Shown in pieces: positions 2,162 to 25,086 of a stretch of 26,857 nt of DNA; position 1 is the stretch's first letter; every line of letters starts with the position of its first letter. Source of the stretch: a virus; UHGV virus genome UHGV-0196088, one strand, 5' to 3'. The notes under the pieces are model-generated. The model made no database searches. It was not told the DNA's origin and saw only the letters and a program-made list of their open reading frames with translations. The position numbers and the translations under genes are program-made.

Positions 2162-2380
2162 CTACATGGTCGGGTCAGTCAAGACCTCAAGAATTGGCAG
2201 GCTCAAGTCGAACGAAGCTACCTGTGGTGCTGGGAGTTCTTGGGCTTCGATAGCCTCTGCTGGTGGTGAGGGCGTGGCATCGGACTCGACTGGGACGATG
2301 GGAAGTTGCACCTCATCACCGGAAGACGATTCATGAGCGGAGCGTTGGGTCAGCTCTGTTTTCTCGTTTTCAATGCTCAT
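2162..2380 (-). CDS. Small acidic, Pro-rich hypothetical protein
   Basis: 72-aa ORF between the Tal-proximal ORF and the holin; low-complexity acidic/proline-rich sequence, 4-nt overlap with the upstream ORF. No recognisable motif. Confidence 0.4.
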   Translation of the reverse strand: MSIENEKTELTQRSAHESSSGDEVQLPIVPVESDATPSPPAEAIEAQELPAPQVASFDLSLPILEVLTDPTM

Positions 2381-2799
2381 TGGTTGTCCTTGGTGATGGC
2401 GTCGTAGAGGACATCGTAGGCTTCGGCCGATTCGCCAGAAAGCTCACCCTCATAGCCATCAAGAAGTGCTTTCACGTCCTTGTCGTGGCCGTCGTAGGTT
2501 GGCCCCGACACTTCAGCGATCGACGCGAGCAGGGCTTGACGGGCTTCGAGGAATTCACTGGCTTTGTCGGGATCAGCGAGGACAAACGTTCCATCGTTTG
2601 CGAACACTGGGCGACCCTGATCGTCAAGTGTTGCGAATTGGGTGACGAGGTCGTATTCATCTTCCCCGAACCGTGCAATCGCCTCCCTCACCAACGTCAG
2701 AAGTTTCGAGCGGGCACGGGACTGCGCCGCCTTCAACGGCATATTGGTGAGTAGGTCTGCGATGGGTTGCAAATGGTGGTTGGTAATCATGATCTTCAT
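2377..2799 (-). CDS. Hypothetical phage protein (about 140 aa)
   Basis: The ORF track gives 2377..2868, but the ATG near 2799 (MKIMITNHH...) follows the Tal stop and is preferred. Positioned between the tail fibre and the lysis cassette. Confidence 0.5.
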   Translation of the reverse strand: MKIMITNHHLQPIADLLTNMPLKAAQSRARSKLLTLVREAIARFGEDEYDLVTQFATLDDQGRPVFANDGTFVLADPDKASEFLEARQALLASIAEVSGPTYDGHDKDVKALLDGYEGELSGESAEAYDVLYDAITKDNQ

Positions 2800-2813
2800 C
2801 AGTGTTTCCTTTT

Positions 2814-9152: not shown

Positions 9153-9353
9153 GTGTGGACCAATGTTGTAACTAATCGCCGGTGGGTATGGCCGTTGTTT
9201 GCTTTACTCGTCATCGGTACGGTCGTTTTCGCTGTTTTGTGGATGAGCGGTGTCGTGCATCCCGTCACGGGCATCGCTAATGCAGCAGGTTTCGCAATAT
9301 GTGCGATCGGGCTTGTAGCGTGGCATCTTGCCACTCGTGGTTTGCAGCGATGA
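9153..9353 (+). CDS. Small membrane protein (2 predicted TM helices), opposite-strand accessory gene
   Basis: 66-aa ORF with a GTG start preceded by GAGGAGGAA (strong RBS, ~5-nt spacing). Two hydrophobic helices (WVWPLFALLVIGTVVFAVLWM, AAGFAICAIGLVAW). Its stop overlaps the next start (ATGA). Confidence 0.6.
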   Translation: MWTNVVTNRRWVWPLFALLVIGTVVFAVLWMSGVVHPVTGIANAAGFAICAIGLVAWHLATRGLQR

Positions 9354-9967
9354 GCACTCCGGTGCTTTTCCTCCACGGACTCGGTGAGACCCCGCAAGCT
9401 TGGAATGGCGTCATCAACGAGTTCGAGAGTATTGACGCTCTCACGCCCACTGTTTTCGATCAGCCATCAGGAACGCCATGGTCGTTACATGAGCGCACGG
9501 ACGAACTCGCCGCGTCACTGAATGATCCAGTCGACGTGGTTGGGCTATCTCTTGGCGCGGTGATGGGTCTTGATCTGGCAATTCGGCACCCGCACATGGT
9601 TCGGTCGCTGTTTCTTTCAGCTCCGCAGGCGCGCCCTCCTAAAGCATTGATGCGCATTCAAAGCGTTCTCATGCGAGTCTTGCCTGAGCGTCTCGTGTGC
9701 CCATCACAGATTTCCAAGCAACAGTTGCTGGAAATCCTGCGTCAAATATCAGCCATTGATTTCGAGCCAGAGCTTGGAAATATCACGGTTCCAACGACGA
9801 TTGCGTGCGGCTCGAAAGACCGCGCGAATCTTCCTGCCGCCCGCACCATCAGCCAACAGATCCCACATGCCCGCCTCATCGTTGTGCCAGACGCGGGTCA
9901 TCAATGGCATCAATTAATGCCCACACAATTCGCTCACGAACTAAAAGCCCACTGGAACAGTATCTAA
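9350..9967 (+). CDS. Alpha/beta-hydrolase fold protein (esterase/lipase-like)
   Basis: About 205 aa from the ATG overlapping the upstream stop. HG oxyanion motif (FLHGLG), nucleophile elbow G-L-S-L-G, C-terminal Asp (GSKDR) and His (DAGHQ) candidates for the triad. Confidence 0.8.
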   Translation: MSTPVLFLHGLGETPQAWNGVINEFESIDALTPTVFDQPSGTPWSLHERTDELAASLNDPVDVVGLSLGAVMGLDLAIRHPHMVRSLFLSAPQARPPKALMRIQSVLMRVLPERLVCPSQISKQQLLEILRQISAIDFEPELGNITVPTTIACGSKDRANLPAARTISQQIPHARLIVVPDAGHQWHQLMPTQFAHELKAHWNSI

Positions 9968-10157: not shown

Positions 10158-10577
10158 CTATGCGTCCACCTGCGCTGGTGCTTTTGGGGCTGGTTCGGTG
10201 AGGATGTCTCGGCGGGTGCCTCGCTGGAGGGCTTCGGCGATCGCGCCACGATAGTCCGCCAGATCAGCAGGCACAGTGAGTAGTTCAACCTCGTCCTCGG
10301 TCAGCTCTGGGCGCTTGTCGTCTGGGTGGCGGTGGTTGTGGATTTGGACTGACTGGTTGGCCAGCAGTGTGATCAGCCAAATCACCTCACCGAGTGTCTT
10401 GCCTAGATCGTCGGAGGTTTCAAGGGCGTTACCGAGATGTTCGAGTCCGCCGTAACGCTCGGCGATCAGACGCGTGGCTTTCGTTGTCAGGACGAGCTCA
10501 TATTCTTCCCCGCCGATCGAGACGATCGCGGAGCGTCCCGGTTCGACAACTGATTCAGTCTTCTTCTTGGTTGTCAT
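10158..10577 (-). CDS. Tail assembly chaperone (candidate)
   Basis: 139-aa acidic ORF immediately downstream of the major tail protein gene, the conserved position of the tail assembly chaperone. Confidence 0.55.
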   Translation of the reverse strand: MTTKKKTESVVEPGRSAIVSIGGEEYELVLTTKATRLIAERYGGLEHLGNALETSDDLGKTLGEVIWLITLLANQSVQIHNHRHPDDKRPELTEDEVELLTVPADLADYRGAIAEALQRGTRRDILTEPAPKAPAQVDA

Positions 10578-13914: not shown

Positions 13915-14796
13915 TCAGTGGGGTTGATTGACTAGTTCGGCGTACAAATCACAAACCCGCCGACCAACAGGTGCAGCGGGTTGAATAGTTGGGCGTGGTG
14001 GTCGCACCGACTTCGACGACGACGGTGGTGATGTGGCGGTCAGATGTGCGACGAGTTTTTGCTCGGCTGCTCGGCGTGAAAACACCGTGCCAAGTCCTGC
14101 GTTCTTGGGTGGGAACGGCAGGCGCTTCGGCTCATCGCCGTCGTCCTCATCGGAACCATCTAGCGACTCAACTTCATCGGCTTCGTCACCGTCAGGTTCT
14201 TCGTCCGGCTCAATCGCAAACATTGGGTTGCGTTCGCCTGTCAGGAGTTCGTCGGCAAATCCCATGTCGATCGCAGCCCGAGCATCCATCCACGTCTCGG
14301 CGTCCATGAGCTTGGACAGCTTAGCCCGACTCATGCCCGTCTTTTCCTGGTAAGCGTTCAGGATCGATTCTTTGACCGAATCAAGCATGCTCATGGCGCG
14401 TGCGAGTTCGTCCTTATCACCAACCGCCATGGTGGCCGGGTTGTGAATCATCAACATCGACACCGGACTCATGGCGACCTTCGTGGCGGCCATGGCAATC
14501 ACGGACGCGGCCGATGCGGCGATGCCGTCGATATTGACGGTGACTGTGCCTGGGTAGTCGATGAGCATGTTGTAGATCTGCGCCGCAGCCACCACGTCCC
14601 CTCCGGGACTGTTGAGCCAGATCGTCACCGGCCCAGACCCAGCATTGAGCTCACTAGCGAAGATGCCTGGTGTGATGTCGTCATCGAACCAAGATTCTTC
14701 AGCGATCGTGCCGCTAATGCGCAAAACCCGGGCTGCATCTGCGTCCGGGTCAGTGTTGTGTGGCTCGGGTGTGAGCCAGTTCCAAAAACGTCTCAT
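13915..14796 (-). CDS. Prohead maturation protease (ClpP/S14-like) with acidic C-terminal extension
   Basis: 293 aa with ClpP-like core motifs (IWLNSPGGDV, AASAASVIAMAATK, MIHNP); lies between portal and capsid; overlaps the portal gene end by 4 nt. Confidence 0.85.
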   Translation of the reverse strand: MRRFWNWLTPEPHNTDPDADAARVLRISGTIAEESWFDDDITPGIFASELNAGSGPVTIWLNSPGGDVVAAAQIYNMLIDYPGTVTVNIDGIAASAASVIAMAATKVAMSPVSMLMIHNPATMAVGDKDELARAMSMLDSVKESILNAYQEKTGMSRAKLSKLMDAETWMDARAAIDMGFADELLTGERNPMFAIEPDEEPDGDEADEVESLDGSDEDDGDEPKRLPFPPKNAGLGTVFSRRAAEQKLVAHLTATSPPSSSKSVRPPRPTIQPAAPVGRRVCDLYAELVNQPH

Positions 14797-16124
14797 ATCC
14801 TCCTCCTTACAGAAGATTCACTTGTAGATTCCACAGCCGGTTCAGGCTCCAGTTCGGGTTGGGCTGGTTCGTCGGCTTGGGTGGCGGCGTAAGCCCCCGC
14901 AAGACCGAGCGGGAGCATGTTCCCGTTTACCAGGTAGAGGTCGCCGCCAGCCTCGGCAGGGATCTTGTCGAGGTTTTCTAGCTCGCGGATATCGTTGGCG
15001 CTCATCCACCCGTTCTGGCGTGCCACCGCATACCCATCCATCCGTGACTTATAGTCACCTCGCAGGAGGCCTTCGAGGTTGAACTTCACGTAGATCTGCG
15101 GCTTCTCACGCGAGCTGAGCAGGGTTTTAGTGATGGCTTGTTCGAAGCGGATCACCCACGGGTCCAACGTGTACTTCACAAACTCCAGCGACTGCTGCTC
15201 AATATTGGAGAAGCTGGATTTTTCCAGGTCGCCAATCATGTGCGGCGGAATACGGAAGATTCGAGCAATTTCGTTGATCTGAAACTTCCTCGTCTCCAAA
15301 AACTGAGCTTGTTCGGGGCTGACGGAGATGGGCGTGTATTTCATGCCCTCTTCCAACACCGCGATCTTGTTGGAGTTCCTCGCGCCGCCGAACGTTGCCT
15401 GCCAGGACTCCCTAACTCTGGCGGGGTCTTTGATCGTGCCCGGATGCTCCAACACCCCACCAGGAGCAGCACCGTTAGCAAAAAACGATGCGCCGTAGTC
15501 TTCTGTTGCTTGGGCGAGGCCGATGGCGTTTTTCGCCATCGCAATCGGGCTATAACCAACCAGGCCGTCAAAGCCCAGGCCGGGAATATGGAGGACATCG
15601 CGCGCGGCCAACGTGACGGTCTCGTATCTTCCTGTTGGTTCGTCCCATGTGCGCTGATACTCGTAATACAAACGCCCGGCTTCGTCGCGTCCGACGGTCA
15701 TGCGGTTGGGCATCAACGGATACAGGCCGATGACCTCGTCGCGGCCGTTACGGATCACCTGAGCAAACGCATTACCCCAGAGCAGTAGGTGGGTCATCAG
15801 CGTTTCCCTAAAGACAAAGGATGTCATTTCAGGGTTCGGCTCATCATGCAACAACCTGTAGAGCGGATGGTCGAGCGCCTTCACCTTCGCCCCATCACTG
15901 CTCTGCCGGTAAACATGCAACGGCAAACCAGCGATTGCTTCAGCCAAAATCCGCACACACGAATACACGGCGCTCATCTGCATAGCGGACCGTTCCGTCA
16001 CCGGACGACCAGACGACGTCGCCCCAAAGAAGAAGCTATAACCAGTACCGATCGCATGATCTTCGGCGGTGCGGGTGGTGTCGCCGCGCAGCCAATTCAG
16101 GAAACCCATGCGGTGTCCTTTCAC
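14793..16124 (-). CDS. Portal protein (HK97-family type)
   Basis: 443 aa; N-terminal GFLNWLRG...SAVYSCVRILAEAIAGLPLHVY is typical of HK97-family portals; downstream of the large terminase. Confidence 0.9.
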   Translation of the reverse strand: MKGHRMGFLNWLRGDTTRTAEDHAIGTGYSFFFGATSSGRPVTERSAMQMSAVYSCVRILAEAIAGLPLHVYRQSSDGAKVKALDHPLYRLLHDEPNPEMTSFVFRETLMTHLLLWGNAFAQVIRNGRDEVIGLYPLMPNRMTVGRDEAGRLYYEYQRTWDEPTGRYETVTLAARDVLHIPGLGFDGLVGYSPIAMAKNAIGLAQATEDYGASFFANGAAPGGVLEHPGTIKDPARVRESWQATFGGARNSNKIAVLEEGMKYTPISVSPEQAQFLETRKFQINEIARIFRIPPHMIGDLEKSSFSNIEQQSLEFVKYTLDPWVIRFEQAITKTLLSSREKPQIYVKFNLEGLLRGDYKSRMDGYAVARQNGWMSANDIRELENLDKIPAEAGGDLYLVNGNMLPLGLAGAYAATQADEPAQPELEPEPAVESTSESSVRRRI

Positions 16125-16139
16125 ATGTAGAATTGGAAT

Positions 16140-16511
16140 ATGAAAGCGCCCTCAAAACAGTCGTGGGCACTGATGAGTGTCCTGCTAGTGGCATTTTGGT
16201 TGTTGCCGCTCATCTCCATGTGGATCAGCAGGCTGAGCGATCCCAACGCCAAGTGGTTCATCGCGTTGCTCTTCCTCGCGTTTCCACTACTCACCATCGT
16301 TTTGAGCGTTATCGATGGGGCACGCCACGGGTTCGGCTGGTGGTGGCTACTGGTCCCGTTCGCAGGGTTCTTGACCACACTGTTCGTGTACTACAACGAT
16401 TCAGCTCTCATCTACGGCGTCGCCTACTCGATCTTGGGACTGATCGGCACAGGCATCGGCGCGTTCATCCATGCGCGTACTCACAGCACGAGTAGGCCGC
16501 GTTCGTCATAA
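16140..16511 (+). CDS. Four-TM integral membrane protein, opposite-strand accessory gene
   Basis: 123-aa ORF with four clear hydrophobic helices. It occupies the gap between the TerL stop and the portal start and overlaps the TerL 3' end convergently by about 30 nt. A TAGAAT -10-like hexamer lies just upstream, implying a short or absent leader. Confidence 0.6.
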   Translation: MKAPSKQSWALMSVLLVAFWLLPLISMWISRLSDPNAKWFIALLFLAFPLLTIVLSVIDGARHGFGWWWLLVPFAGFLTTLFVYYNDSALIYGVAYSILGLIGTGIGAFIHARTHSTSRPRSS

Positions 16512-18112
16512 ACACTGCCGCTGACGTGCCCGCTGCCGTTTCGGATAGCGCGGTCAAGAGCCATGATGGTGGCGACCACGCCGTCAATCTTCTCCGTGGA
16601 CTTTTGCTTGTCGGGTTTGATGTTTCCTGCTGGGTCGGTGCGAACGTGAATGTTGTCTACCATCCATGACAGGACTGGGTGACCGCCATGGGCGAGCTTA
16701 CCTTCGAGTGCGAGCTTCATCAGCTCCTTCGACGGCGGGCTCATATCCTTAAAGCCCTGCCCGAAGGGAACGACGGTGAAACCGAGGCCTTCGAGGTTTT
16801 GACTCATTTGCACAGCACCCCACCGGTCGAACGCAATCTCACGAATATCAAACCGTTCACCTAGCTGTTCAATGAAGGCTTCAATCGCTCCGTAATGAAC
16901 GACGTTGCCCTCAGTCGTCTCTAGGTAGCCTTTTTGCTGCCACAGGTCGTAGGGCACATGGTCACGGGCTACTCGCAGTTTGAGGTTGTCTTGCGGTATC
17001 CAGAACCATGGCGCAATCACATACCGCTCGTCACCGGTTTCGGGTGGGAAGACGAGCACGAACGCGGTGATATCCGTCGTCGAGGCAAGATCGAGCCCGC
17101 CGTAACACACCCGCCCCTCCAAATCTGACAGGTCGACGGGTGCGTTGTTTTGGTTCCACACGTGCATGGGCATCCACCGCACGCTTTGTTTGACCCATTG
17201 GTTGAGGCGAAGTTGTCGGAACGTGTTCTCCTCAGCCGGATTCTGCCTGGCCGAGGTGCAGGCTTGGCGGACTTTCTCAATCGGAACCGTGATCCCCAAG
17301 CTCGGATTAGCCTTATGCCACACGTCCTCGTCGGTCCAGTCATCCTCTCTGTCAGCACCGTAGATGACCGGGTAGAACGTCGGGTCATGTTTCTTGCCTG
17401 CGAGGATGTCTTCAGCTTTCTCATGCTGCTCATAACAAATCGAATGCGTGTCGGTACCGGCCGTCGTGATGAGGAAGTACAACGGCTGCGTGCGAGCATC
17501 ACCCGAACCCTTGGTCATCACGTCGAACAAGGCACGGCCCGGTTGGGTGTGGAGTTCGTCGAAGACGACACCAGAAATGTTGAACCCGTGCTTCGAATAC
17601 GCCTCAGCGCTCAACACTTGATAGAAGGAGTTGGTGGGCTTGTAAATAATCCGCTTCTGCGAGGCAAGAATCTTGACACGCTTGGACAACGCTGGACTCA
17701 TGCGGATCATGTCCGCCGCGACCTCAAACACAATCGAGGCTTGCTGGCGGTCTGCCGCACACCCATACACTTCAGCGCGTTCTTCACCATCCCCGCAGGT
17801 GAGCAGGAGCGCGACCGCTGCGGCAAGCTCCGACTTGCCCATCTTCTTCGGAATCTCGACATAGGCGGTGGTGAACTGGCGGTAACCGTCCGCTTTGACG
17901 GTGCCGAACAGGTCACGGATGATCTGCTCTTGCCAATCAATGAGCTGGAACGGTTTGCCTGACCAGCGGCCCTTCGTGTGCTTGAGCGCTTGAATGAAGG
18001 CCACCGCATAGTCGGCTTTGCGCTTGTCATAGCGTGAGCCGTCAGCCATGAACCGGGTTGGCGTATAGGTTTCTAGTTGACGCATCGTGTCCCACCTCCT
18101 CTCCAGTGGCAT
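16481..18112 (-). CDS. Terminase large subunit
   Basis: ORF-track coordinates; the probable true start is the ATG near 18085 (MRQLETYTPTRF...), preceded by GGAGAGGAGGTG. Contains a TKGRWSGKPFQLIDWQ motif, an ATPase Walker-A-like KKMGKSELAA, and a C-terminal nuclease domain. Confidence 0.9.
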   Translation of the reverse strand: MPLERRWDTMRQLETYTPTRFMADGSRYDKRKADYAVAFIQALKHTKGRWSGKPFQLIDWQEQIIRDLFGTVKADGYRQFTTAYVEIPKKMGKSELAAAVALLLTCGDGEERAEVYGCAADRQQASIVFEVAADMIRMSPALSKRVKILASQKRIIYKPTNSFYQVLSAEAYSKHGFNISGVVFDELHTQPGRALFDVMTKGSGDARTQPLYFLITTAGTDTHSICYEQHEKAEDILAGKKHDPTFYPVIYGADREDDWTDEDVWHKANPSLGITVPIEKVRQACTSARQNPAEENTFRQLRLNQWVKQSVRWMPMHVWNQNNAPVDLSDLEGRVCYGGLDLASTTDITAFVLVFPPETGDERYVIAPWFWIPQDNLKLRVARDHVPYDLWQQKGYLETTEGNVVHYGAIEAFIEQLGERFDIREIAFDRWGAVQMSQNLEGLGFTVVPFGQGFKDMSPPSKELMKLALEGKLAHGGHPVLSWMVDNIHVRTDPAGNIKPDKQKSTEKIDGVVATIMALDRAIRNGSGHVSGSVYDERGLLVL

Positions 18113-18194: not shown

Positions 18195-18389
18195 TTAGAT
18201 CAGGGCGTCGAGCGCGGCATATTCAGCGCGACGCTGGTCGAGCTGGTGGGCGATGATGGAGGAGCGGAAGCCGTTCTTCTCCCGTCCCAGCTTGTTTTCT
18301 AGGGCGGTGATCTCGGCCTTGCGACGTTTCATCACCTCGATCGTGTCGCCGCCTTGGATTGCTTGCTTGTCGCGTTCGAAACTGTTCAT
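18195..18389 (-). CDS. Small hypothetical protein (64 aa, charged, predicted helical)
   Basis: The ORF track extends to 18518, but the ATG near 18389 (MNSFERDKQ...) is 8 nt downstream of AAGGAG. Preceded by leader element copy A. Confidence 0.5.
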   Translation of the reverse strand: MNSFERDKQAIQGGDTIEVMKRRKAEITALENKLGREKNGFRSSIIAHQLDQRRAEYAALDALI

Positions 18390-18395
18390 GACCAT

Positions 18396-18490
18396 CTCTC
18401 CTTCTCTTGTTTGGTCATGTACATACAGCCATAGACCCGCGACTATATCCAGTCGTTTTCGGCGTATTTTCAAGGGAAAATAGCGATGGT
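18396..18490 (-). promoter_or_regulatory. Conserved leader element, copy A (candidate promoter/operator plus RBS)
   Basis: Core CTTGTTTGGTCATGTACATACAGCCATA (plus strand) with flanking conservation (TATCCAGTCGT, GAAAATAG); about 95 bp near-identical to copy B. Contains the palindrome ATGTACAT and ends in the RBS of the downstream ORF. Confidence 0.6.
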
Positions 18491-18606
18491 CGCCACTCGC
18501 GCACTGAGGCGTTGTCACGAGCCAAACAAGACGGAAGATGCGCCCAGTATGTAAGTGGCAAGCCCAGATCCGTGCCCTGGTCGGTGTGGGTTGGGGCTAG
18601 CGCGGT

Positions 18607-18879
18607 TTAGAGAGCGTTGATCATGCCGATCGCCCAGGCAGTTGCGTGGCCTTCGTCGGTGAAGGCTTCATCGGATTCGGCAGCGAGCATCACTGGGGCG
18701 TTCTTACCTTGGCCTAGGATCTGGAAGATCGCTACGAAATGCTCGTAGGTGCCGAGGGAGTCGTTCCAGATGCGGTTGGTGGCGATCAGGTGAGTGCCGT
18801 AGCGCATCGCGTGTCCCAGGATCTTGTAGTGCTTGGCAACCGCTGTGGTGGTCTTCAAGGCTGTAAGTTCGTTGTTCAT
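18607..18879 (-). CDS. Small hypothetical protein (90 aa)
   Basis: ATG preceded by AAGGAG at ~7-nt spacing, directly after leader element copy B. No recognisable motif. Confidence 0.55.
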   Translation of the reverse strand: MNNELTALKTTTAVAKHYKILGHAMRYGTHLIATNRIWNDSLGTYEHFVAIFQILGQGKNAPVMLAAESDEAFTDEGHATAWAIGMINAL

Positions 18880-18885
18880 GACCTT

Positions 18886-18985
18886 GCTCCTTCTCTTGTT
18901 TGATCATGTACATACAGCCATACGTCGCCGCGCATATCCAGTCGTCTTCCGCGTATTCACGAGGAAAATAGAGATTCTGGTCTCT
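18886..18985 (-). promoter_or_regulatory. Conserved leader element, copy B
   Basis: Same core as copy A with one mismatch (CTTGTTTGATCATGTACATACAGCCATA) and the same flanking blocks. Confidence 0.6.
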
Positions 18986-18999
18986 CGCTTCTGCTCGGG

Positions 19000-19647
19000 T
19001 TATTCGGCCGGGTGTGGCGCGGTTTTCCACGCCGCATTACCTTCCAAATTCGCAAGTAACACCCGGCGGGCGGTCTTGTATCCCTCGCCAAGCATTCCCA
19101 GGCGTAGGAGCCAGCAGCGCATCGCATACTTATCATTCCCTGGTTCAGGTGGTTTCGGTGAGATGCGGGTGGAGGTCTTGGCTTGCTCGATCATCAGCTG
19201 GATAAGCACGCTAGCCACCTCAATCACCTCCGCCTCAGGAAGCTGATCGAACCAAGCAAACTCAACCGTTCCTTCCACCTCGTCCATCTTCATGGGCGTG
19301 GCCGGAATATCGAGTGCCTTGGCGATGAGTGCTCCCTTGGCGGCGAGCAGGGCTTCGAGCTTCGCTGCTGTGGCCTCGTCCCACCCGGTCGTGGGGAATG
19401 CGAGCGTCAGCCCGTACTCCTCGCCCGTGGGCGCAAAACCAGCCGTAATCGCCGCCTCGGTGAGGGAGTCGGTGTCGATGTCCTCTGGGAGGTGGAGCAC
19501 CCAATCCCGATCTAGCCGGGCTTGCCCGATCAGGTAGTCGAAAGAAGGCGTACCCGCATACACGGGGTTCACGCCGAGATGGGCGGCGAGGGCTTCGGCG
19601 AGTTTCTTGCGCCCTCTCTTGTTCGGGGAGAAAGGAATCCGGGTCAT
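19000..19647 (-). CDS. Hypothetical protein (about 215 aa), translationally coupled to the upstream acidic ORF
   Basis: Likely start MTRIPFSPNKRGRKK... at the ATG near 19647, preceded by GGAGGTG inside the 3' end of the upstream ORF. Basic N-terminus, acidic central region. No recognisable family. Confidence 0.55.
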   Translation of the reverse strand: MTRIPFSPNKRGRKKLAEALAAHLGVNPVYAGTPSFDYLIGQARLDRDWVLHLPEDIDTDSLTEAAITAGFAPTGEEYGLTLAFPTTGWDEATAAKLEALLAAKGALIAKALDIPATPMKMDEVEGTVEFAWFDQLPEAEVIEVASVLIQLMIEQAKTSTRISPKPPEPGNDKYAMRCWLLRLGMLGEGYKTARRVLLANLEGNAAWKTAPHPAE

Positions 19648-19829
19648 GCTGCCACCTCCTGGTCGAACCAAGATGCGATGAAACCGAGATAGTCATCTGG
19701 GTAGTCGTTGATGCAGGTTGCGGCTAGCTCGAAGTCGTGTTCGCAGGCGTACCCGAATGCTTCAGCACGGTTCCACAGGTCGACGCCTGCTTCTAGCATT
19801 TCGGTCAGTTCAATATGTAGTTCGCTCAT
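19644..19829 (-). CDS. Small strongly acidic protein (about 61 aa)
   Basis: MSELHIELTEMLEAGVDLWNRAEAFGYACEHDFELAATCINDYPDDYLGFIASWFDQEVAA: about 14 Asp/Glu against one Arg. GGAGG RBS; the same ATGGTCATGA start context as the ORF at 18389; leader element copy C upstream. Confidence 0.55.
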   Translation of the reverse strand: MSELHIELTEMLEAGVDLWNRAEAFGYACEHDFELAATCINDYPDDYLGFIASWFDQEVAA

Positions 19830-19866
19830 GACCATCCTCCAATTCGTGTTTCCCCCAGTTAGGGAT

Positions 19867-19925
19867 CTTGTTTGGTCATGTACATACAGCCATAGGTGCG
19901 CCCGCTTATCCAGTCGTATTGGCTG
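19867..19925 (-). promoter_or_regulatory. Conserved leader element, copy C
   Basis: Identical 28-bp core (CTTGTTTGGTCATGTACATACAGCCATA) plus the TATCCAGTCGT block; located just 3' of the C5-MTase stop and about 38 nt upstream of the acidic ORF start. Confidence 0.55.
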
Positions 19926-21417
19926 CTTTTTGTAGCCTGTTTAGGACGTATTTCACTACTGGTAATGCCACCCCATTTCCCCACAGTTTGTACTGTGCTG
20001 AATCAGTTGGCGCGGTTTTCAGCCAAGTAGTGATTTGGCTGCGAGTTTTCGGTTTCACGCCCCGTCCTAGGTTCCAGTTCTTCCACACGCCCTCCCAGTA
20101 CCTGATTTCGTCTTCGTCTGGGTCGAGGTTTGTGAGGTTGTCACACCAATAGTCCGGGAAGCCTTGTAGACGAGAACATTCGAGGGGTGTGAGTTTGCGT
20201 GGGCGAAGCATCGTATTAGCGACAATAGGTGGCTGGTGTGAATCACTTGCCAAAAGTGCACCAGCAACATTTGTAGTTGCCCTCGTGAAATGATCAGATT
20301 TCGAAGAAGCATAGATCGGTTCGAGAATGACCATTCCGCCTTGATTGCATGCGGGATTACCGCCAGCTAAATCAAGAGTTTTTGCCACAGTGGTTTCGTA
20401 ACCGCATTCACCACCATATTTACGATTGTCGTGGACGGAATTTATACCGTATACAGGTTGGTCGAGTAGGAGTGGAACATTTCCACCTCCTGTTCCCATT
20501 CGTGAAGTTAAGGTTTGACTTGTTACCTGGTCGCCAATTTCGATGCGCGAATCATTGGGATGGTAATCAAGCATCACCTGCATGCTAGGTTTAAATAAGA
20601 CTTGGTCAGCACCAGTTCCTAATGTGCCTGAAAGGTCATGCTGAATCAACGGCCCTTTACCACCGCCTGGCTTACCGGCACGCATACGAAGAGTTAACGC
20701 CCCGCACCGGTTGCCTGTAGTGCTTGGGCTAATTGCTCGGGCAGGGTTTTGTTTTTCTTCTTTGCTCGCGTCAGGATTCCTTGTGCTGCTTTGGGACTCA
20801 AATAGAATCTCGGGTGCGGATTGTCCTGCAAAATCTGCGACAAGGAAGATACGACGACGACGTTGGGGCACTCCGAAAAATTGAGCATCGAGCACTCGCC
20901 ATGCAAGTGATGCCCCATCTGCCAAGACGTATCCGCTGGTTGCCCAGCTGGTTTCAGGAACAGGAATGCGTGGCGTTTGCTGGCAGGACACCTCGATAAA
21001 CGCTTGCAAGACCGCGGCAAAGTCGGCCCCGTGGTTTGAGGAGAATACGCCCGGCACGTTTTCCCACACAGCATATCTTGGGTAGACACCATGAGTTGCT
21101 TGCCTCATTTCTTCAATAATCCGCACAGCTTGGTAAAACAGTGAGGAGCGAGACCCATCAATCCCGCTCCGCTTACCTGCGATAGATAAATCCTGACAAG
21201 GTGAACCAAACGTGATCACATCCACCGGCTGTAACCGGCCACCATCTAACAAATTAATATCGCCAACATGGCGAACTTCAGGCAGATTTTTCCTCGTTAC
21301 CCGGATAGCGAAGGGGTCTACCTCAGATGCCCACATCGGTTTGATACCAACCATTTTGGCAGCTAAAGGGAAACCGCCCGAACCATCAAACAAGGAACCC
21401 AACGTCAAAGCACTCAC
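19906..21417 (-). CDS. DNA (cytosine-5)-methyltransferase
   Basis: 503 aa with motif I (LFDGSGG), motif IV (GSPCQDLSIAG), motif VI (ENVPG), motif VIII (QRRRRIFLVA), a large variable target-recognition region, and a C-terminal GFPDYW motif. GTG start overlaps the stop of the upstream MTase (GTGA). Confidence 0.95.
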   Translation of the reverse strand: MSALTLGSLFDGSGGFPLAAKMVGIKPMWASEVDPFAIRVTRKNLPEVRHVGDINLLDGGRLQPVDVITFGSPCQDLSIAGKRSGIDGSRSSLFYQAVRIIEEMRQATHGVYPRYAVWENVPGVFSSNHGADFAAVLQAFIEVSCQQTPRIPVPETSWATSGYVLADGASLAWRVLDAQFFGVPQRRRRIFLVADFAGQSAPEILFESQSSTRNPDASKEEKQNPARAISPSTTGNRCGALTLRMRAGKPGGGKGPLIQHDLSGTLGTGADQVLFKPSMQVMLDYHPNDSRIEIGDQVTSQTLTSRMGTGGGNVPLLLDQPVYGINSVHDNRKYGGECGYETTVAKTLDLAGGNPACNQGGMVILEPIYASSKSDHFTRATTNVAGALLASDSHQPPIVANTMLRPRKLTPLECSRLQGFPDYWCDNLTNLDPDEDEIRYWEGVWKNWNLGRGVKPKTRSQITTWLKTAPTDSAQYKLWGNGVALPVVKYVLNRLQKAANTTG

Positions 21418-22715
21418 GATTCACCCCGATCAACATCCCGCACCAAATCCAAATACGCGTATTCCTTGCCCTCACGCAAACAGGTGATACCTGCCGCGTC
21501 CCCGGTGTGTTCGGCATACCGGCGCAAAATCACGGAGGCGTATTTCTCGTCGAGCTCCATCGCATAACAGATGCGGTCGCTGGCCTCGCACGCCATCAAG
21601 GTTGAGCCTGAGCCTGCGAACGTGTCGAGCACGATCGCGTTCGCCTGAGTGGAGTTCCCAATCGGATAAGCCAACAAATCCAGCGGTTTAGAGGTGGGGT
21701 GGTCGGCGTTGCGGCGTGGCTTAGCGAAATTCCAGATCGTGGTCTGCTTACGATCCGCATACCAGCGATGCTTACCCGTCTTCACCCATCCAAAGAGCAC
21801 CGGCTCGTGCTGCCACTGATACGGGGAACGTCCCAATACGAGGGAATCTTTGACCCAGATGCAACATCCGGAGAGGTAGAAGCCAGCGTCTTGGAAGGCT
21901 CTGCGGAAGTTTAAGCCTTCAGTGTCAGCGTGAAAAACGTAGGCGGACGCGCCCTTCTCACACACGCCCGCCATATTCGTAAACGCTGCGAGAAGGAAGT
22001 CGTAGAACTTATCGCCATCCATCTTGTCGTTCTTAATCGACAAACCCGACCCTGATTCGAAGGCGACGTTATATGGCGGATCGGTCAACACAAGATTCGC
22101 ACGCTTACCATCCATCAACAACTCGACGTCCTCGGCGCTGGTGGCGTCGCCACAGACAAGTCGGTGGCGGCCGACTGTCCACACATCCCCACGCTCCACG
22201 AAAGTAGCAGCTTCTAACGCGGCGGTGAGGTCGAAATCATCATCCTCCACATCACCCTCATCCAATGAGCCGATAAGCTGCGCGATCTCAGCATCGTCAA
22301 AACCGGTCAGTTCAGCATCGAAATCCGAAGAGTCAAGGTCAGCGATGAGGAGGGCAAGTTTGTCGTTGTCCCATTCGCCACTGATCTTGTTCATCGCAAC
22401 GTTCAGCGCCTTTTCGCGCATTTCGTCAAGTTCGACGACGACGCAGTCCACGGTTTCTTGTCCCAAGTGTTTGAGAACGGACAATCGCTGATGACCAGAG
22501 ATGACGGTGTTGTCATTCGCCGCGTTAACCACCACTAGCTCGACGTAGCCGAACTCAGTCAGGGAGCGCTTAAGCTTTTCAAACTCAGCATCGCCAGGCT
22601 TGAGTTCCTTACGCGGGTTATATGCGGCAGGTTTCAGTTCAGCTATCGGTAGCTGCTTGATTATCATGGACATAGGTGGAGCCTTTCTTGAATAAGAAGC
22701 TGGCTGATGCCCCAA
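21414..22715 (-). CDS. ParB-like nuclease domain fused to an N6-adenine (DPPY-type, beta-class) DNA methyltransferase
   Basis: N-terminal ParB-like region (IAELKPAAYNPRK...ISGHQRL), then DPPY (LVLTDPPYNV) followed by FAGSGST. The likely true start is MSMIIKQ near 22673, which would reduce the overlap with the HNH gene. Confidence 0.9.
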   Translation of the reverse strand: MGHQPASYSRKAPPMSMIIKQLPIAELKPAAYNPRKELKPGDAEFEKLKRSLTEFGYVELVVVNAANDNTVISGHQRLSVLKHLGQETVDCVVVELDEMREKALNVAMNKISGEWDNDKLALLIADLDSSDFDAELTGFDDAEIAQLIGSLDEGDVEDDDFDLTAALEAATFVERGDVWTVGRHRLVCGDATSAEDVELLMDGKRANLVLTDPPYNVAFESGSGLSIKNDKMDGDKFYDFLLAAFTNMAGVCEKGASAYVFHADTEGLNFRRAFQDAGFYLSGCCIWVKDSLVLGRSPYQWQHEPVLFGWVKTGKHRWYADRKQTTIWNFAKPRRNADHPTSKPLDLLAYPIGNSTQANAIVLDTFAGSGSTLMACEASDRICYAMELDEKYASVILRRYAEHTGDAAGITCLREGKEYAYLDLVRDVDRGES

Positions 22716-23206
22716 TCGCCAATAAGTTCGTAGACACGTTTCGTTTCTGCTTCAACCTTCGGGTGGCACGAGCGGCAAAGAACTGCGAGATTATTGCCCC
22801 AGCGCTCGCCTCCACATTTGGTTGGGATGATGTGGTGCACAATGAGATTGCACCTGCTTCCACACCGTCTGCAGATCCCGCGTTTGCGAAGCTTTTGAGA
22901 GAGCTGCTGCCAGTGATAGTCATAGGGACCATACGTGCGCATCGCCTGAGCGTTTTGCCTCAAGACGTTAGTTAGTCGCTGTCTTTTCGAATCGGAGTAT
23001 TCACGCCATTTGCAAGATGTGTGCGCACCGATTTTCGCTTTTGTTTCGGGCGAATGATAGTTCTCACCAAGAGCCTCCTTGCGTCGTCTGAGGCCTGCCG
23101 AAACTTTCTTTCTAAACTCAGGATCTTTGTTCTTCTCAATGAGGTCTTTGCGGCTCTTTTGCCATTCATTTTGACAAGGCACCGAACAAAAGAATTGAGA
23201 AGGCAC
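22664..23206 (-). CDS. HNH endonuclease
   Basis: C-terminal HNH/zinc motif (CRRCGSRCNLIVHHIIPTKCGGERWGNNLAVLCRSCH) and a basic N-terminal region. The gene is visibly lower in G+C than its neighbours. The start is uncertain (GTG at 23206 or an internal ATG). Confidence 0.8.
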   Translation of the reverse strand: MPSQFFCSVPCQNEWQKSRKDLIEKNKDPEFRKKVSAGLRRRKEALGENYHSPETKAKIGAHTSCKWREYSDSKRQRLTNVLRQNAQAMRTYGPYDYHWQQLSQKLRKRGICRRCGSRCNLIVHHIIPTKCGGERWGNNLAVLCRSCHPKVEAETKRVYELIGDWGISQLLIQERLHLCP

Positions 23207-23261
23207 CCGATTTCAGGCATACCTACGCGTTCCCCGCACACCGCATGTGGCGCATTCGTAT

Positions 23262-24440
23262 TCAACCTTCATGCCTTGTAATCGCTTTCTTTAGCGCGTC
23301 GACGTGAGCGAACGAGTTTTCCCAATGCAGACCTGTATGACCGAAGTGCCCATAGGTTGAATACTGTGTAAAGCTAGGCTTGCGAAGGTTCAAGGCATCG
23401 ATGATTGCTCCAGGGCGCAGCGAGAATACTTCGCGTGCTGCCTCGGTCAGGATCTCGTCGGAGTATTCACCACTGCCGAGGGTGTCAACAGTGAAGGCGA
23501 CTGGGTCAGCCTTCCCAATCGCATAAGAAATGCTTACTTGGCACTCGATGGCCAACCGTGCGTCGACGATCGTTTTCGCGATCAGGCGCGCCATATAGGC
23601 ACCCGAACGATCCACTTTCGAGGCGTCCTTGCCTGAGAACGCACCACCACCATGGAGCGCGAGACCGCCGTAAGTATCAACCATCAACTTGCGACCCGTC
23701 AGACCCGTGTCCGCCTTCGGCCCACCCACCGTAAACAAGCCTGAGGGATTCACCAGAATCTCGGTGTCAGCGCTAATCGGCAGGTACAGCTTACAAGCGG
23801 GTGCGACGATCAGTGTTTTGACCTCAGCTGCAAGCTCATCTAGATCCTTGATCTTCTCGTGTTGGATCGACACCACCACGGTCTCAATCGCCAGCGGTTG
23901 TCCGGCGGCGTCGTAGCGAACCGTCACCTGCGCCTTACCATCGGACTTGATACCGGTGATCGTGCCTTGCTTGCGGGCATTGTCGAGCCGGGCGCAAATC
24001 TCATGAGAGAGCACAAGCGGCAGCGGCAAACGCTCCGGAGTCTCACGAGTGGCATAACCGTAAACAGTGCCTTGATCGCCAGCACCCTGCAAAGCGAATT
24101 CGGTGTCATCCCCAAAGCGTGCCTCTAAGGACTTGGAGACTCCGGCATTGATATCTGGGGATTGGCGGCGTGTCCAGACGAAGACGAGGAACTTCCACGG
24201 CACATAACCCGCCTCCATCAACGCGTAACGCACCGACTCACGAATGCGCGGACGAACCTTCGAAGTGATCTCGCCAGTGACGATGATCCGATGCCCGCTA
24301 GCCATCACTTCTACTGCGACGCGGGCAGCAGGATCCTCGTAGAGGATATCGTCAAGGATCGTGTCAGCGATCAGGTCGCAGAGCTTATCGGGATGGCCGA
24401 CACACACGGCCTCAGCAGTCTTCGTAACAGACATACACAC
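23262..24440 (-). CDS. metK: S-adenosylmethionine synthetase (methionine adenosyltransferase)
   Basis: MetK signature motifs by eye: GHPDKLCD near the N-terminus, GAGDQG, DTYGG, GGGAFSGKDASKVDRSGAY, and a YAIG C-terminal region. The probable start is the ATG two codons in (MSVTKTAEAV...). Confidence 0.95.
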   Translation of the reverse strand: MCMSVTKTAEAVCVGHPDKLCDLIADTILDDILYEDPAARVAVEVMASGHRIIVTGEITSKVRPRIRESVRYALMEAGYVPWKFLVFVWTRRQSPDINAGVSKSLEARFGDDTEFALQGAGDQGTVYGYATRETPERLPLPLVLSHEICARLDNARKQGTITGIKSDGKAQVTVRYDAAGQPLAIETVVVSIQHEKIKDLDELAAEVKTLIVAPACKLYLPISADTEILVNPSGLFTVGGPKADTGLTGRKLMVDTYGGLALHGGGAFSGKDASKVDRSGAYMARLIAKTIVDARLAIECQVSISYAIGKADPVAFTVDTLGSGEYSDEILTEAAREVFSLRPGAIIDALNLRKPSFTQYSTYGHFGHTGLHWENSFAHVDALKKAITRHEG

Positions 24441-24513: not shown

Positions 24514-25086
24514 TTAGGAGCGTGCTTTGAGCAGTTGCTCCATCACGTCATCACCCGGAGCCGTGCCCGAGTAGTCGGTGGTGCAGGTGGCGCGGACGAT
24601 CTCGTAAATCTCGTACCAGTACACGTTCGCTTGCTTCCCGAACGACTGGGACATGGCGACGAAGGGGGACGCGATTGCAGCCCCTGTGGTTGGGTGCTTG
24701 CCAAGTAGGCCGAACTTGGAGATCGCCTGCTCACACTGCACATAGCGCGCGAACGCCTGCGCATAGGCTTCGATCAGACGTGGGGCGACGAACTGGGAAC
24801 AGCCACGTTGATCGAGCCATTGCCACGTTTCTCGGTAGACCAGGTCAGCACCGAGTGGTTTGCCATCCCGCTGAACCTCAGACAAATACTCGCTAGGTTC
24901 TGGCATGGTCTCCCCGGCGAGCACTGCGCCCTCACCCACATCGGAGCCGCTGAAATCAAACACGTCCTCAAGCGGATCATGCAACCTAGTCGCAGGGCTG
25001 CCTTTGGCAACCTTCTCACTCAACGCATCCGGCTTCGCACCCGCACGCACCCGACGTCCACCCCTGTTAGTACCATCCTTAGCCAT
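24514..25086 (-). CDS. Terminase small subunit (P27-family-like)
   Basis: 190 aa; basic N-terminus (MAKDGTNRGGRRVRAGAKP), central ...LIEAYAQAFARYVQCEQAISKFGLLGKHPTTGAAIASPFVAM... resembling P27-type small terminases. GGAGG RBS. First late gene after an AT-rich promoter region. Confidence 0.6.
   Translation of the reverse strand: MAKDGTNRGGRRVRAGAKPDALSEKVAKGSPATRLHDPLEDVFDFSGSDVGEGAVLAGETMPEPSEYLSEVQRDGKPLGADLVYRETWQWLDQRGCSQFVAPRLIEAYAQAFARYVQCEQAISKFGLLGKHPTTGAAIASPFVAMSQSFGKQANVYWYEIYEIVRATCTTDYSGTAPGDDVMEQLLKARS

What the first reader, a model, noticed from the sequence alone, without database searches (positions are those of the whole stretch)
16125..16511. Four-TM membrane protein gene on the opposite strand, wedged between large terminase and portal
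Seen in sequence: a 123-aa plus-strand ORF with four clear hydrophobic helices fills the gap between the TerL stop and the portal start and overlaps the TerL 3' end convergently. A TAGAAT -10-like hexamer lies just upstream with almost no leader. Established knowledge: TerL and portal genes are usually adjacent. Inference: a small membrane gene expressed from the prophage, a candidate for superinfection exclusion or membrane-level defence.
Basis: partly seen in the sequence, partly recalled or inferred. Interest (0 to 1): 0.55.

Follow-up and report, generated by a model that had tools for sequence, protein, structure and literature searches.

The report
Host-derived membrane-protein moron between TerL and portal
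A real, conserved gene for a small four-helix membrane protein, copied from a bacterial chromosomal family of unknown function, sits backwards in a prophage's terminase–portal junction as a classic add-on ("moron") gene that has recently spread among related phages; what it does for the cell is untested.

Summary
ORF 16140-16511 (+) encodes a 123-aa protein. AlphaFold2 models it as a four-helix membrane bundle (pLDDT 94), and charge distribution predicts N-in/C-in topology. It fills the 371-bp gap between the TerL stop (16481) and the portal start (ATG 16109) and overlaps the TerL 3' end by 31 bp.

It is a genuine gene from a family of at least 300 clusters at 50% identity. NCBI already names it "DUF2651 family protein", although it scores just under Pfam's cut-off. 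Most relatives (36-50% identical) are chromosomal Actinomyces-type genes outside phages, so the phage gene is host-derived.

Among 131 non-redundant related junctions, TerL and portal abut in 67 and carry unrelated cargo in 64. The slot is a cargo hot spot and the ORF fits the definition of a moron. A -10-like hexamer lies exactly 6 nt before the ATG in all 27 family loci, which predicts a leaderless transcript from the gene's own promoter.

Three alleles only 33-50% identical occupy the same slot. The window's allele is a low-diversity island: 1.8% pairwise difference against 13-15% in the flanks, implying recent spread.

The function is unknown. Superinfection exclusion is plausible by analogy with HK97 gp15, but no homology supports it. 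Interest is moderate.

The parts
16140..16511 (+). ORF123: 123-aa DUF2651-like four-helix inner-membrane protein, predicted N-in/C-in topology
16128..16133 (+). TAGAAT, a -10-like (TANNNT) hexamer 6 nt upstream of the ATG; predicted promoter of a leaderless mRNA
   Evidence: the same hexamer + 6 nt + ATG geometry in all 27 family loci (TA(G/A)AAT, TATCAT, TATGAT, GATTAT, AAAAAT, AAAATA). The sigma-70 consensus scan found nothing.
16110..16480 (.). Inserted cassette (moron): everything between the portal start codon and the TerL stop codon
   Evidence: relatives have a 0-30 bp gap here or unrelated cargo
16481..16511 (.). 31-bp convergent overlap with the TerL 3' end. It encodes the C-terminal tail (about the last 9 residues, HSTSRPRSS), which the chromosomal homologues lack.
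16050..16550 (.). Low-diversity island: 95-100% nucleotide identity to 8 related prophages whose flanks are a 62-100% mosaic
16481..18112 (-). Large terminase gene (context, flank of the slot)
14793..16109 (-). Portal gene (context); conserved start ATG 16109, RBS AAAGGA at 16116-16121

Best explanation
ORF123 is a moron: a self-contained accessory gene inserted exactly between the TerL stop and the portal start of a Heliusvirales-type (Actinomycetaceae-infecting) prophage, in the opposite orientation to the late operon. It derives from a chromosomal family of small membrane proteins (DUF2651-like) found in Actinomyces-type bacteria. I infer that it is transcribed from its own -10-only promoter as a leaderless mRNA while the late operon is silent in the lysogen. 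I further infer that the protein inserts into the cytoplasmic membrane as an N-in/C-in four-helix bundle and benefits the lysogen at the envelope. The specific mechanism I rank first, at about 0.3, is HK97-gp15-like superinfection exclusion: a host-derived inner-membrane protein that interferes with DNA entry by incoming related phages. Retention of the chromosomal family's native, still unknown membrane role ranks just behind at about 0.3. Shown here: the gene is real, it belongs to a host-derived family, the slot is variable, the promoter geometry is conserved, the fold is a confident four-helix bundle, and the allele spread recently. Inferred: expression in the lysogen, membrane topology, and any phenotype.
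For: The gene is real and conserved. A profile search finds 351 clusters at 90% identity and 300 at 50% identity. All 18 full-length close copies are intact, with dN/dS of roughly 0.1-0.9 on 6-25 substitutions per pair. The AF2 model has pLDDT 94.3. It has a host origin: relatives at 36-50% identity (P0030, P0104, P0106, P0129) lie in a conserved non-phage neighbourhood on contigs up to 244 kb. It meets the moron criterion: among 131 non-redundant related junctions, 67 abut and 64 carry cargo falling into about 60 unrelated protein clusters of at least 60 aa, and in the actinobacterial clade 25 of 30 cargo genes are on the opposite strand. The promoter geometry (hexamer + 6 nt + ATG) is conserved in 27 loci against a 0.25% background. 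Topology: family mean K+R is 6.4 on the N-terminus, loop 2 and C-terminus versus 0.75 on loops 1 and 3. Dissemination: the cassette differs by 1.8% pairwise against 15.5% in portal and 13.2% in TerL; dS is 0.025-0.064 against 0.56-1.0; no equal-sized window outside the island falls below 11%. Seven further viral contigs show the same pattern. Three alleles that are 33-50% identical share the slot while TerL stays 83-87% identical. The ORF is kept intact beside truncated TerL and portal genes in L004-L006. Precedent: HK97 gp15 is a late-operon moron derived from the chromosomal YebO family and blocks DNA injection (PMC3594210).
Against: There is no transcript or protein evidence. No sigma-70 consensus promoter and no terminator were found, and the region after the stop folds no better than shuffles (z = 0.73). 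The cassette's GC content does not differ from its flanks (55.3% vs 56.8%), so two classical moron hallmarks are missing. There were no PADLOC, PHROGs or NCBIfam hits. Fold searches returned only generic helical bundles. The family's conserved residues (P49, G60, G64, N86, S88, A89, Y92, Y96, G107) are all retained in the phage allele. That favours the ancestral function over a new anti-phage one. Other cargo in the slot looks metabolic or transport-related rather than defensive. A low-diversity island is expected for any young single-origin insertion whose flanks recombine with cassette-less relatives, so it does not by itself prove positive selection.
Confidence: 0.62

Rival explanations
1. 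Lysogenic-conversion gene that simply supplies the native activity of the chromosomal DUF2651-like family (an unknown membrane role, possibly small-molecule or ion handling, or a subunit of a membrane complex) to hosts that lack or under-express it. It would have no anti-phage role.
Against: The alleles in the slot are only 33-50% identical while the backbone is 83-87% identical. That is faster turnover than expected for a housekeeping role. The LucB similarity is not seen at profile level. I could not test whether hosts carrying the phage copy lack a chromosomal copy.
Confidence: 0.3
2. Neutral or selfish hitch-hiker: a recently captured host gene fragment that persists only because it sits in a permissive slot and gives the lysogen no benefit.
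For: The low-diversity island is what a young single-origin insertion shows even without selection. dN/dS among close copies is only moderately below 1 (mostly 0.2-0.6) and is based on few substitutions.
Against: All 18 full-length close copies are intact, across at least 6 host genera and including degraded prophages. Alleles B and C keep the four-helix architecture and motifs at 33-50% identity, with dN/dS about 0.25-0.34 against allele A. The promoter geometry is conserved.
Confidence: 0.07
3. Lytic-cycle membrane function: a holin, antiholin or lysis-timing protein, or the membrane partner of a RexAB-like abortive-infection pair.
For: It is a four-TM small protein, like RexB, Sbash gp31 and Butters gp31 (PMC7542560) and like some holins.
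Against: A dedicated holin (Phage_holin_4_1, 1613-2104) and endolysin (627-1613) lie elsewhere in the window. The ORF is antisense to the late operon. There is no room for a cytoplasmic partner gene in the 371-bp cassette. The ORF is absent from most relatives, and it hits no holin or PADLOC model.
Confidence: 0.03
4. Not a gene: a chance ORF in a non-coding spacer.
For: The window contains many long spurious ORFs.
Against: Hundreds of homologues exist, including chromosomal ones. The predicted structure is high-confidence. GC3 is 0.76 in frame. Copies stay intact across 33-98% identity.
Confidence: 0.01

Closest known systems
Phage morons (Juhala et al. 2000; Cumby et al. 2012, PMC3594210)
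   Same: It is an extra gene between two genes that are adjacent in related phages. It appears to be an independent transcription unit inside a late operon, it has bacterial homologues outside prophages, and it has been disseminated horizontally among phage genomes.
   Different: It has no recognisable terminator: the ORF reads 31 bp into the antisense of TerL. It shows no GC deviation from its flanks. Its promoter is a bare -10 box driving a leaderless mRNA, the actinobacterial style.
HK97 gp15 (YebO-derived superinfection-exclusion moron)
   Same: It is a small inner-membrane protein encoded by a moron within the structural-gene operon. It derives from a chromosomal family of unknown function and has a C-terminus that differs from the chromosomal homologues.
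   Different: There is no sequence or fold relationship. gp15 lies between the tail chaperone and tape-measure genes, whereas this gene lies between TerL and portal. Exclusion activity is demonstrated for gp15 and untested here. Here the family's conserved residues are all retained.
Pfam DUF2651 (PF10852; Bacillus YbeF-type small membrane proteins)
   Same: The match covers helices 2-4 (residues 43-109 align to model positions 1-67 of 73). NCBI names the close homologues 'DUF2651 family protein'.
   Different: The score of 21.8 bits is below the 25-bit gathering cut-off. Only 10 of 76 diverse relatives match at E <= 0.01. The actinobacterial proteins have an extra N-terminal helix. The family has no known function, and I found no paper mentioning it.
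Four-TM membrane components of prophage Abi pairs (lambda RexB, Sbash gp31, Butters gp31)
   Same: They are four-pass membrane proteins expressed from actinobacteriophage or lambdoid prophages.
   Different: Those work with an adjacent cytoplasmic sensor (RexA or gp30). ORF123 is a solitary gene in a 371-bp cassette and hits no PADLOC model.

Membership tests
Moron | Inserted between two genes that are adjacent in related phage genomes | tested here: met
   67 of 131 non-redundant related junctions have TerL and portal abutting (gap under 60 bp); the others hold unrelated cargo.
Moron | Own promoter allowing expression from the repressed prophage | tested here: inconclusive
   A -10-like hexamer exactly 6 nt before the ATG is conserved in 27 family loci, but there is no sigma-70 consensus hit and no transcript data.
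Moron | Own transcription terminator | tested here: not met
   No terminator-like site on the plus strand. The 146 nt after the stop fold no better than shuffles (z = 0.73). The ORF ends inside TerL.
Moron | Base composition differing from the surrounding genes | tested here: not met
   Cassette GC is 55.3% versus 56.9% for portal and 56.8% for TerL. This is consistent with a donor from the same bacterial family.
Moron | Disseminated among phage genomes by horizontal transfer | tested here: met
   Cassette pairwise difference is 1.8% versus 13-15% in the flanks; dS is 0.03-0.06 versus 0.6-1.0; the same holds in 7 further viral contigs.
Pfam DUF2651 (PF10852) | Score at or above the curated gathering threshold (25 bits) | tested here: not met
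   21.8 bits, E = 3.1e-4, covering 67 of 73 model positions. 10 of 76 relatives match at E <= 0.01. Precomputed PF10852.15 hits and NCBI naming exist for close homologues. Best described as DUF2651-like and peripheral to the family.
Known superinfection-exclusion or defence proteins | Sequence or structural homology to a described Sie or defence protein | tested here: not met
   No PADLOC hit, no PHROGs hit, no significant BFVD or PDB match.
Known superinfection-exclusion or defence proteins | Blocks infection or DNA entry of incoming phage when expressed | not testable with these tools
   Requires plating and DNA-entry assays.
RexAB-like two-component Abi | Adjacent cytoplasmic sensor partner gene | tested here: not met
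   The cassette holds a single ORF; the next genes on either side are TerL and portal.
Holin | Located in a lysis cassette, co-oriented with late genes, and matching a holin family | tested here: not met
   The Phage_holin_4_1 gene at 1613-2104 sits next to the amidase endolysin at 627-1613. ORF123 is antisense to the late genes and matches no holin model.

The most novel reading that the evidence does not exclude
The DUF2651-like protein is a new, fast-turning-over superinfection-exclusion or envelope-defence determinant. It would have been co-opted from a host membrane family, as gp15 was from YebO, and be sweeping through prophages of at least six Actinomycetaceae genera. The TerL-portal junction would then be a previously undescribed, order-wide cargo hot spot of Ca. 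Heliusvirales from which further such determinants could be mined.
Probability: 0.25. Interest if true: 0.6.

Novelty: new member of a known kind. Interest (0 to 1): 0.4.

Why it matters
If the protein protects lysogens, it would give a first function to an uncharacterised membrane-protein family (DUF2651-like). It would also be a second worked example of a host membrane protein co-opted by a phage, after HK97 gp15/YebO, this time in clinically relevant urogenital Actinomycetaceae (Varibaculum, Winkia, Mobiluncus, Actinobaculum, Arcanobacterium, Trueperella). Whatever the function turns out to be, the data point to a compact, well-delimited cargo slot between TerL and portal across a widespread gut and urogenital phage order. 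About half of the genomes carry something there. That makes it a convenient place to look for accessory genes and to study how morons spread by recombination through conserved flanks.

Tried and rejected
- **Immunity-protein idea:** I asked whether the 59-aa ORF that always precedes the chromosomal homologues is a bacteriocin-like peptide. It is a Cys-rich, soluble-looking protein with no leader peptide, so the idea gained no support.
- **Foldseek searches:** nothing below E = 0.26 against PDB or BFVD. The afdb50 library was unavailable.
- **Family libraries:** NCBIfam, PHROGs and PADLOC gave no hits for the ORF.
- **Literature:** no papers mention DUF2651, and searches for B. subtilis ybeF returned only the unrelated E. 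coli YbeF regulator.
- **Profile-based scan of viral contigs:** failed because the alignment had no conserved stretch to search with. I replaced it with an exact 24-mer scan. That scan found the cassette only in the TerL-portal slot, so there is no evidence that it moves to other positions.
- **Other ORFs in the gap:** 16133-16495 (+, 120 aa) and 16121-16378 (-, 85 aa) were rejected, because the protein family and the GC3 phase belong to the 16140 frame.
- **Alternative start at Met12 (16173), used by some gene callers:** rejected in favour of ATG 16140, based on alignment with the homologues' N-termini and the conserved hexamer spacing.

Full report
**1. The observation**

The window carries an ATG-initiated ORF at 16140-16511 on the plus strand, encoding 123 aa. 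It lies between two minus-strand genes. One is the large terminase at 16481-18112 (Pfam TerL_ATPase and TerL_nuclease; PHROG 9). The other is the portal gene at 14793-16124 (Pfam Phage_portal, 442 bits).

The ORF overlaps the last 31 bp of TerL convergently. A hydropathy scan shows four hydrophobic segments. The hexamer TAGAAT lies at 16128-16133, exactly 6 nt before the ATG.

One correction concerns the portal start. Relatives align from Met6 of the GTG-started translation, and ATG 16109 has a good RBS (AAAGGA at 16116-16121, minus strand). The gap between the two late genes is therefore 371 bp. The ORF and portal are divergent, with starts 30 bp apart.

**2. Is it a gene?**

ORF length alone means little here: the window has 59 ORFs of at least 110 aa, many of them overlapping real genes in other frames. 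The evidence comes from elsewhere.

- GC3 in the ORF's frame is 0.76, as high as or higher than in neighbouring genes.
- A single-sequence search found close homologues and one at 34% identity.
- A five-sequence profile found 351 clusters at 90% identity and 300 representatives at 50% identity out of 1.84 billion proteins. Nearly all are 100-140 aa.
- With a 76-sequence alignment, AlphaFold2 gives a confident four-helix bundle (pLDDT 94.3, pTM 0.85; helices 6-32, 39-63, 68-84, 87-118).
- Across the family, Lys+Arg average 6.4 on the N-terminus, loop 2 and C-terminus, against 0.75 on loops 1 and 3. The positive-inside rule therefore predicts N-in/C-in topology.
- The most conserved positions are P49, G60, G64, F65, N86, S88, A89, Y92, Y96 and G107. 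They cluster at the two membrane faces (the helix 2-3 loop and the helix 3-4 turn).

**3. What family?**

Pfam gives only a sub-threshold match to DUF2651 (21.8 bits against a 25-bit cut-off), covering helices 2-4. Only 10 of 76 diverse relatives match that model at E <= 0.01.

NCBI nevertheless names the near-identical proteins "DUF2651 family protein" in Winkia neuii, Varibaculum cambriense, Trueperella abortisuis and "MULTISPECIES Actinomycetaceae". So the gene is already annotated in public records, with no function assigned.

**4. Where do relatives live?**

The more distant relatives (36-50% identity; P0030 alone is indexed in 353 blocks of the collection) are not in phages. They sit on contigs up to 244 kb in a conserved chromosomal neighbourhood:

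- a CoA-disulfide-reductase/rhodanese protein,
- a CsoR-like repressor,
- a Cys-rich 59-aa ORF,
- the DUF2651-like gene,
- a SAM methyltransferase, a hydrolase, a GyrI-like protein, YbjQ, and a giant S8 peptidase.

The one member with an organism name is from an uncultured Actinomyces. The phage gene is therefore a captured member of a host chromosomal family. The 59-aa neighbour is not bacteriocin-like, so an "orphan immunity gene" reading gained no support.

**5. The slot**

The window is the late region of a Heliusvirales-type prophage. Its closest deposited phages are Ca. Heliusvirales at about 70% nucleotide identity. The paper describing that order places an Actinomycetaceae-infecting subfamily, Ca. 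Nitavirinae, within it (PMC11283538).

I fetched 160 loci encoding TerL at 77-96% identity and measured the TerL-portal junction in each. Results for 131 non-redundant junctions:

| Clade | Junctions | Abutting (gap < 60 bp) | With cargo (218-3254 bp) | Largest cargo ORF opposite / same strand as TerL |
|---|---|---|---|---|
| Actinobacterial (TerL >= 82%) | 38 | 8 | 30 | 25 / 5 |
| Mostly Bacillota (TerL < 82%) | 93 | 59 | 34 | 17 / 17 |
| Total | 131 | 67 | 64 | 42 / 22 |

The cargo falls into about 60 mutually unrelated protein clusters of at least 60 aa. Identified cargo includes:

- PAPS reductase,
- DUF1643,
- an HXXEE membrane protein,
- an ArsP permease,
- a GNAT acetyltransferase,
- many unknowns.

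None of the nine alternative cargo proteins tested hits PADLOC. Phages whose TerL is 93-95% identical to the window's can carry entirely different cargo (L014, L015, L019, L094, L099).

This is the textbook definition of a moron: extra DNA between genes that are adjacent in relatives (PMC3594210). The slot is a hot spot. The Heliusvirales paper mentions morons and AMGs in general, but in the passages I retrieved it does not describe this junction.

**6. Expression signals**

The sigma-70 consensus scan finds no promoter and no plus-strand terminator. The 146 nt after the stop fold no better than shuffles (z = 0.73).

However, every family locus examined has an A/T-rich -10-like hexamer exactly 6 nt before the start codon:

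- TA(G/A)AAT in 9 allele-A phage loci,
- TATCAT, TATGAT or GATTAT in 13 chromosomal loci,
- AAAAAT or AAAATA in the 5 divergent phage loci.

The strict pattern TANNNT-N6-ATG occurs at only 0.25% of the window's ATGs. It is established that many actinobacterial genes are leaderless, with promoters that are little more than a TANNNT -10 box placed so that transcription begins at the start codon.

I therefore infer a leaderless mRNA starting at ATG 16140. This also settles the start codon: some gene callers chose Met12, but the N-terminus MKAPSKQSW aligns with MRWxTKSTW of the homologues.

With no terminator, transcription would run antisense into TerL. The last nine or so residues (HSTSRPRSS) are encoded by the antisense of the TerL C-terminus and are absent from chromosomal homologues. 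The capture apparently fused the gene's 3' end onto the TerL stop.

**7. Evolution in the slot**

Three alleles occupy the same position and orientation:

| Allele | Loci |
|---|---|
| A | the window, plus 18 other full-length copies and one partial copy |
| B | L029, L103, L110, L111 |
| C | L039 |

| Comparison | Amino-acid identity |
|---|---|
| A vs B | 31-36% |
| A vs C | 35-36% |
| B vs C | 48-50% |
| C vs chromosomal clade | 45-50% |
| A vs chromosomal clade | 35-40% |
| TerL of the window vs phages carrying B or C | 83-87% |

Within allele A the picture reverses. Between the window and five non-redundant loci, synonymous divergence is 0.56-1.0 in TerL and 0.70-0.95 in portal, but only 0.025-0.064 in the ORF.

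A sliding-window comparison shows 95-100% nucleotide identity over about 16050-16550 in all eight comparisons. The flanks are a 62-100% mosaic. Mean pairwise difference is 1.8% in the cassette, 15.5% in portal and 13.2% in TerL. No 371-bp window outside the island is below 11.1%.

An exact 24-mer scan of IMG/VR found seven more contigs with the cassette. All carry it in the same slot, at 97-100% cassette identity against mostly 82-90% in the flanks. Allele B shows no such island.

The allele-A cassette therefore has a much younger common ancestor than the backbones it sits in. It has been carried, by recombination through the conserved TerL 3' and portal 5' ends, across phages now found in Arcanobacterium, Actinobaculum, Mobiluncus, Varibaculum, Winkia and Trueperella.

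This fits positive selection, but a neutral young insertion whose flanks recombine with cassette-less relatives would look similar. All 18 full-length allele-A copies besides the window's are intact. That includes three loci (L004-L006) where TerL and portal are truncated or rearranged. dN/dS among close copies is mostly 0.2-0.6, on few substitutions. Between alleles it is about 0.25-0.34.

**8. Mechanism**

The following are shown: a real, host-derived, four-helix membrane-protein gene; a variable cargo slot; conserved leaderless-promoter geometry; and recent horizontal spread. Expression from the repressed prophage, insertion into the cytoplasmic membrane N-in/C-in, and any benefit to the lysogen are inferred.

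For the specific action I rank HK97-gp15-like superinfection exclusion first, at about 0.3. gp15 is also a late-operon moron. It encodes a small inner-membrane protein derived from a chromosomal family of unknown function (YebO), and it blocks DNA injection by related phages (PMC3594210). Allele turnover in the slot combined with the recent spread of one allele is the kind of dynamic expected of such a gene.

Almost as likely, at about 0.3, is that the phage copy simply supplies the native activity of the chromosomal family. All family-conserved residues are retained, and other cargo in the slot looks metabolic or transport-related.

Other readings fare worse:

- A neutral hitch-hiker is less likely (about 0.07).
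- A lysis or RexB-like role is unlikely (about 0.03). The window has its own holin and endolysin at 627-2104, the ORF is antisense to the late operon, and the cassette has no room for a partner gene (compare PMC7542560).
- "Not a gene" is excluded.

**9. Novelty and verdict**

The kind of element is well known, and the protein is already annotated in public databases as a DUF2651-family protein. I could not find the following described elsewhere:

- the recognition that this family is phage cargo of chromosomal origin,
- the order-wide TerL-portal cargo hot spot,
- the conserved leaderless geometry,
- the low-diversity island marking recent spread.

I rate it a new member of a known kind, with interest 0.4. 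It is a good, compact experimental target rather than a surprise.

Noticed in passing
window 9299-9967 (+): A second opposite-strand accessory gene, an alpha/beta-hydrolase (Pfam Abhydrolase_6). It lies between a probable tail chaperone (10158-10577, -) and the tape-measure gene (6415-9093, -), the same position as the original HK97 gp15 moron. In related contigs L189 and L191 this slot holds about 530-540 bp of unrelated DNA instead of 870 bp, so it is another variable cargo slot.
   Followed up: partly
window 18195-24440: TerS (24514-25086) and TerL (16481-18112) are separated by 6.4 kb of accessory and DNA-modification genes: SAM synthetase MetK (23262-24440), HNH endonuclease (22664-23206), ParB-N6/N4 methylase (21414-22715), C5 cytosine methylase (19906-21417), Nmad4 (18607-18879) and two unknown ORFs.
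   Followed up: no
L013-L172 (TerL-related loci): TerL is 77-80% identical in amino acids between prophages of Actinomycetota and Bacillota (Bacillus, Clostridium, Oscillospiraceae, Lachnospiraceae), which is unusually high conservation across phyla. A few hits lie on contigs binned as Akkermansia, Bacteroidaceae or gammaproteobacterial MAGs, which may be binning errors.
   Followed up: no
L013, L016, L017, L018; proteins P0007-P0010: Prophages with TerL at least 93% identical, carrying the same cassette, occur in at least six genera of Actinomycetaceae (Arcanobacterium, Actinobaculum, Mobiluncus, Varibaculum, Winkia, Trueperella). This implies a broad host range or very recent inter-genus transfer.
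   Followed up: partly
L004 5633-6477; L005 4115-5399; L006 1713-2606: The ORF is intact in what look like degraded or rearranged prophages: TerL is reduced to its C-terminal nuclease part and portal to an N-terminal fragment. In L004 the cassette, with short TerL and portal stubs, is inverted next to a second, complete portal gene and DUF1643-like genes.
   Followed up: partly
L173-L184 (chromosomal homologue loci): The chromosomal DUF2651-like genes lie downstream of a CoA-disulfide-reductase/rhodanese gene, a CsoR/CstR-like repressor and a Cys-rich 59-aa ORF, which might link them to sulfide or persulfide stress. In L178, L179 and L181, NADAR-DarT1 genes are inserted just downstream, and L181 also has an ApeA_NTD1 gene, suggesting a variable, defence-island-like spot.
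   Followed up: no
L015 5606-8860; L026 5596-7734: These are the largest cargo loads in the TerL-portal slot. L015 carries 3.25 kb with about seven ORFs, several with predicted TM segments. L026 and L107 carry 2.25 kb including a 392-aa ArsP-type permease on the opposite strand.
   Followed up: partly
window 2263-2868: Overlapping candidate ORFs on both strands (2263-2754 + and 2377-2868 -, 163 aa each) lie between the tail gene and the holin. The plus-strand candidate has no Pfam hit; the minus-strand one was not scanned, so which is real is unresolved.
   Followed up: no
L189 6345-7384: A related contig has about 1 kb of extra DNA between the positions matching window 11221 and 11189 (head-tail connector region), a further possible cargo site.
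   Followed up: no
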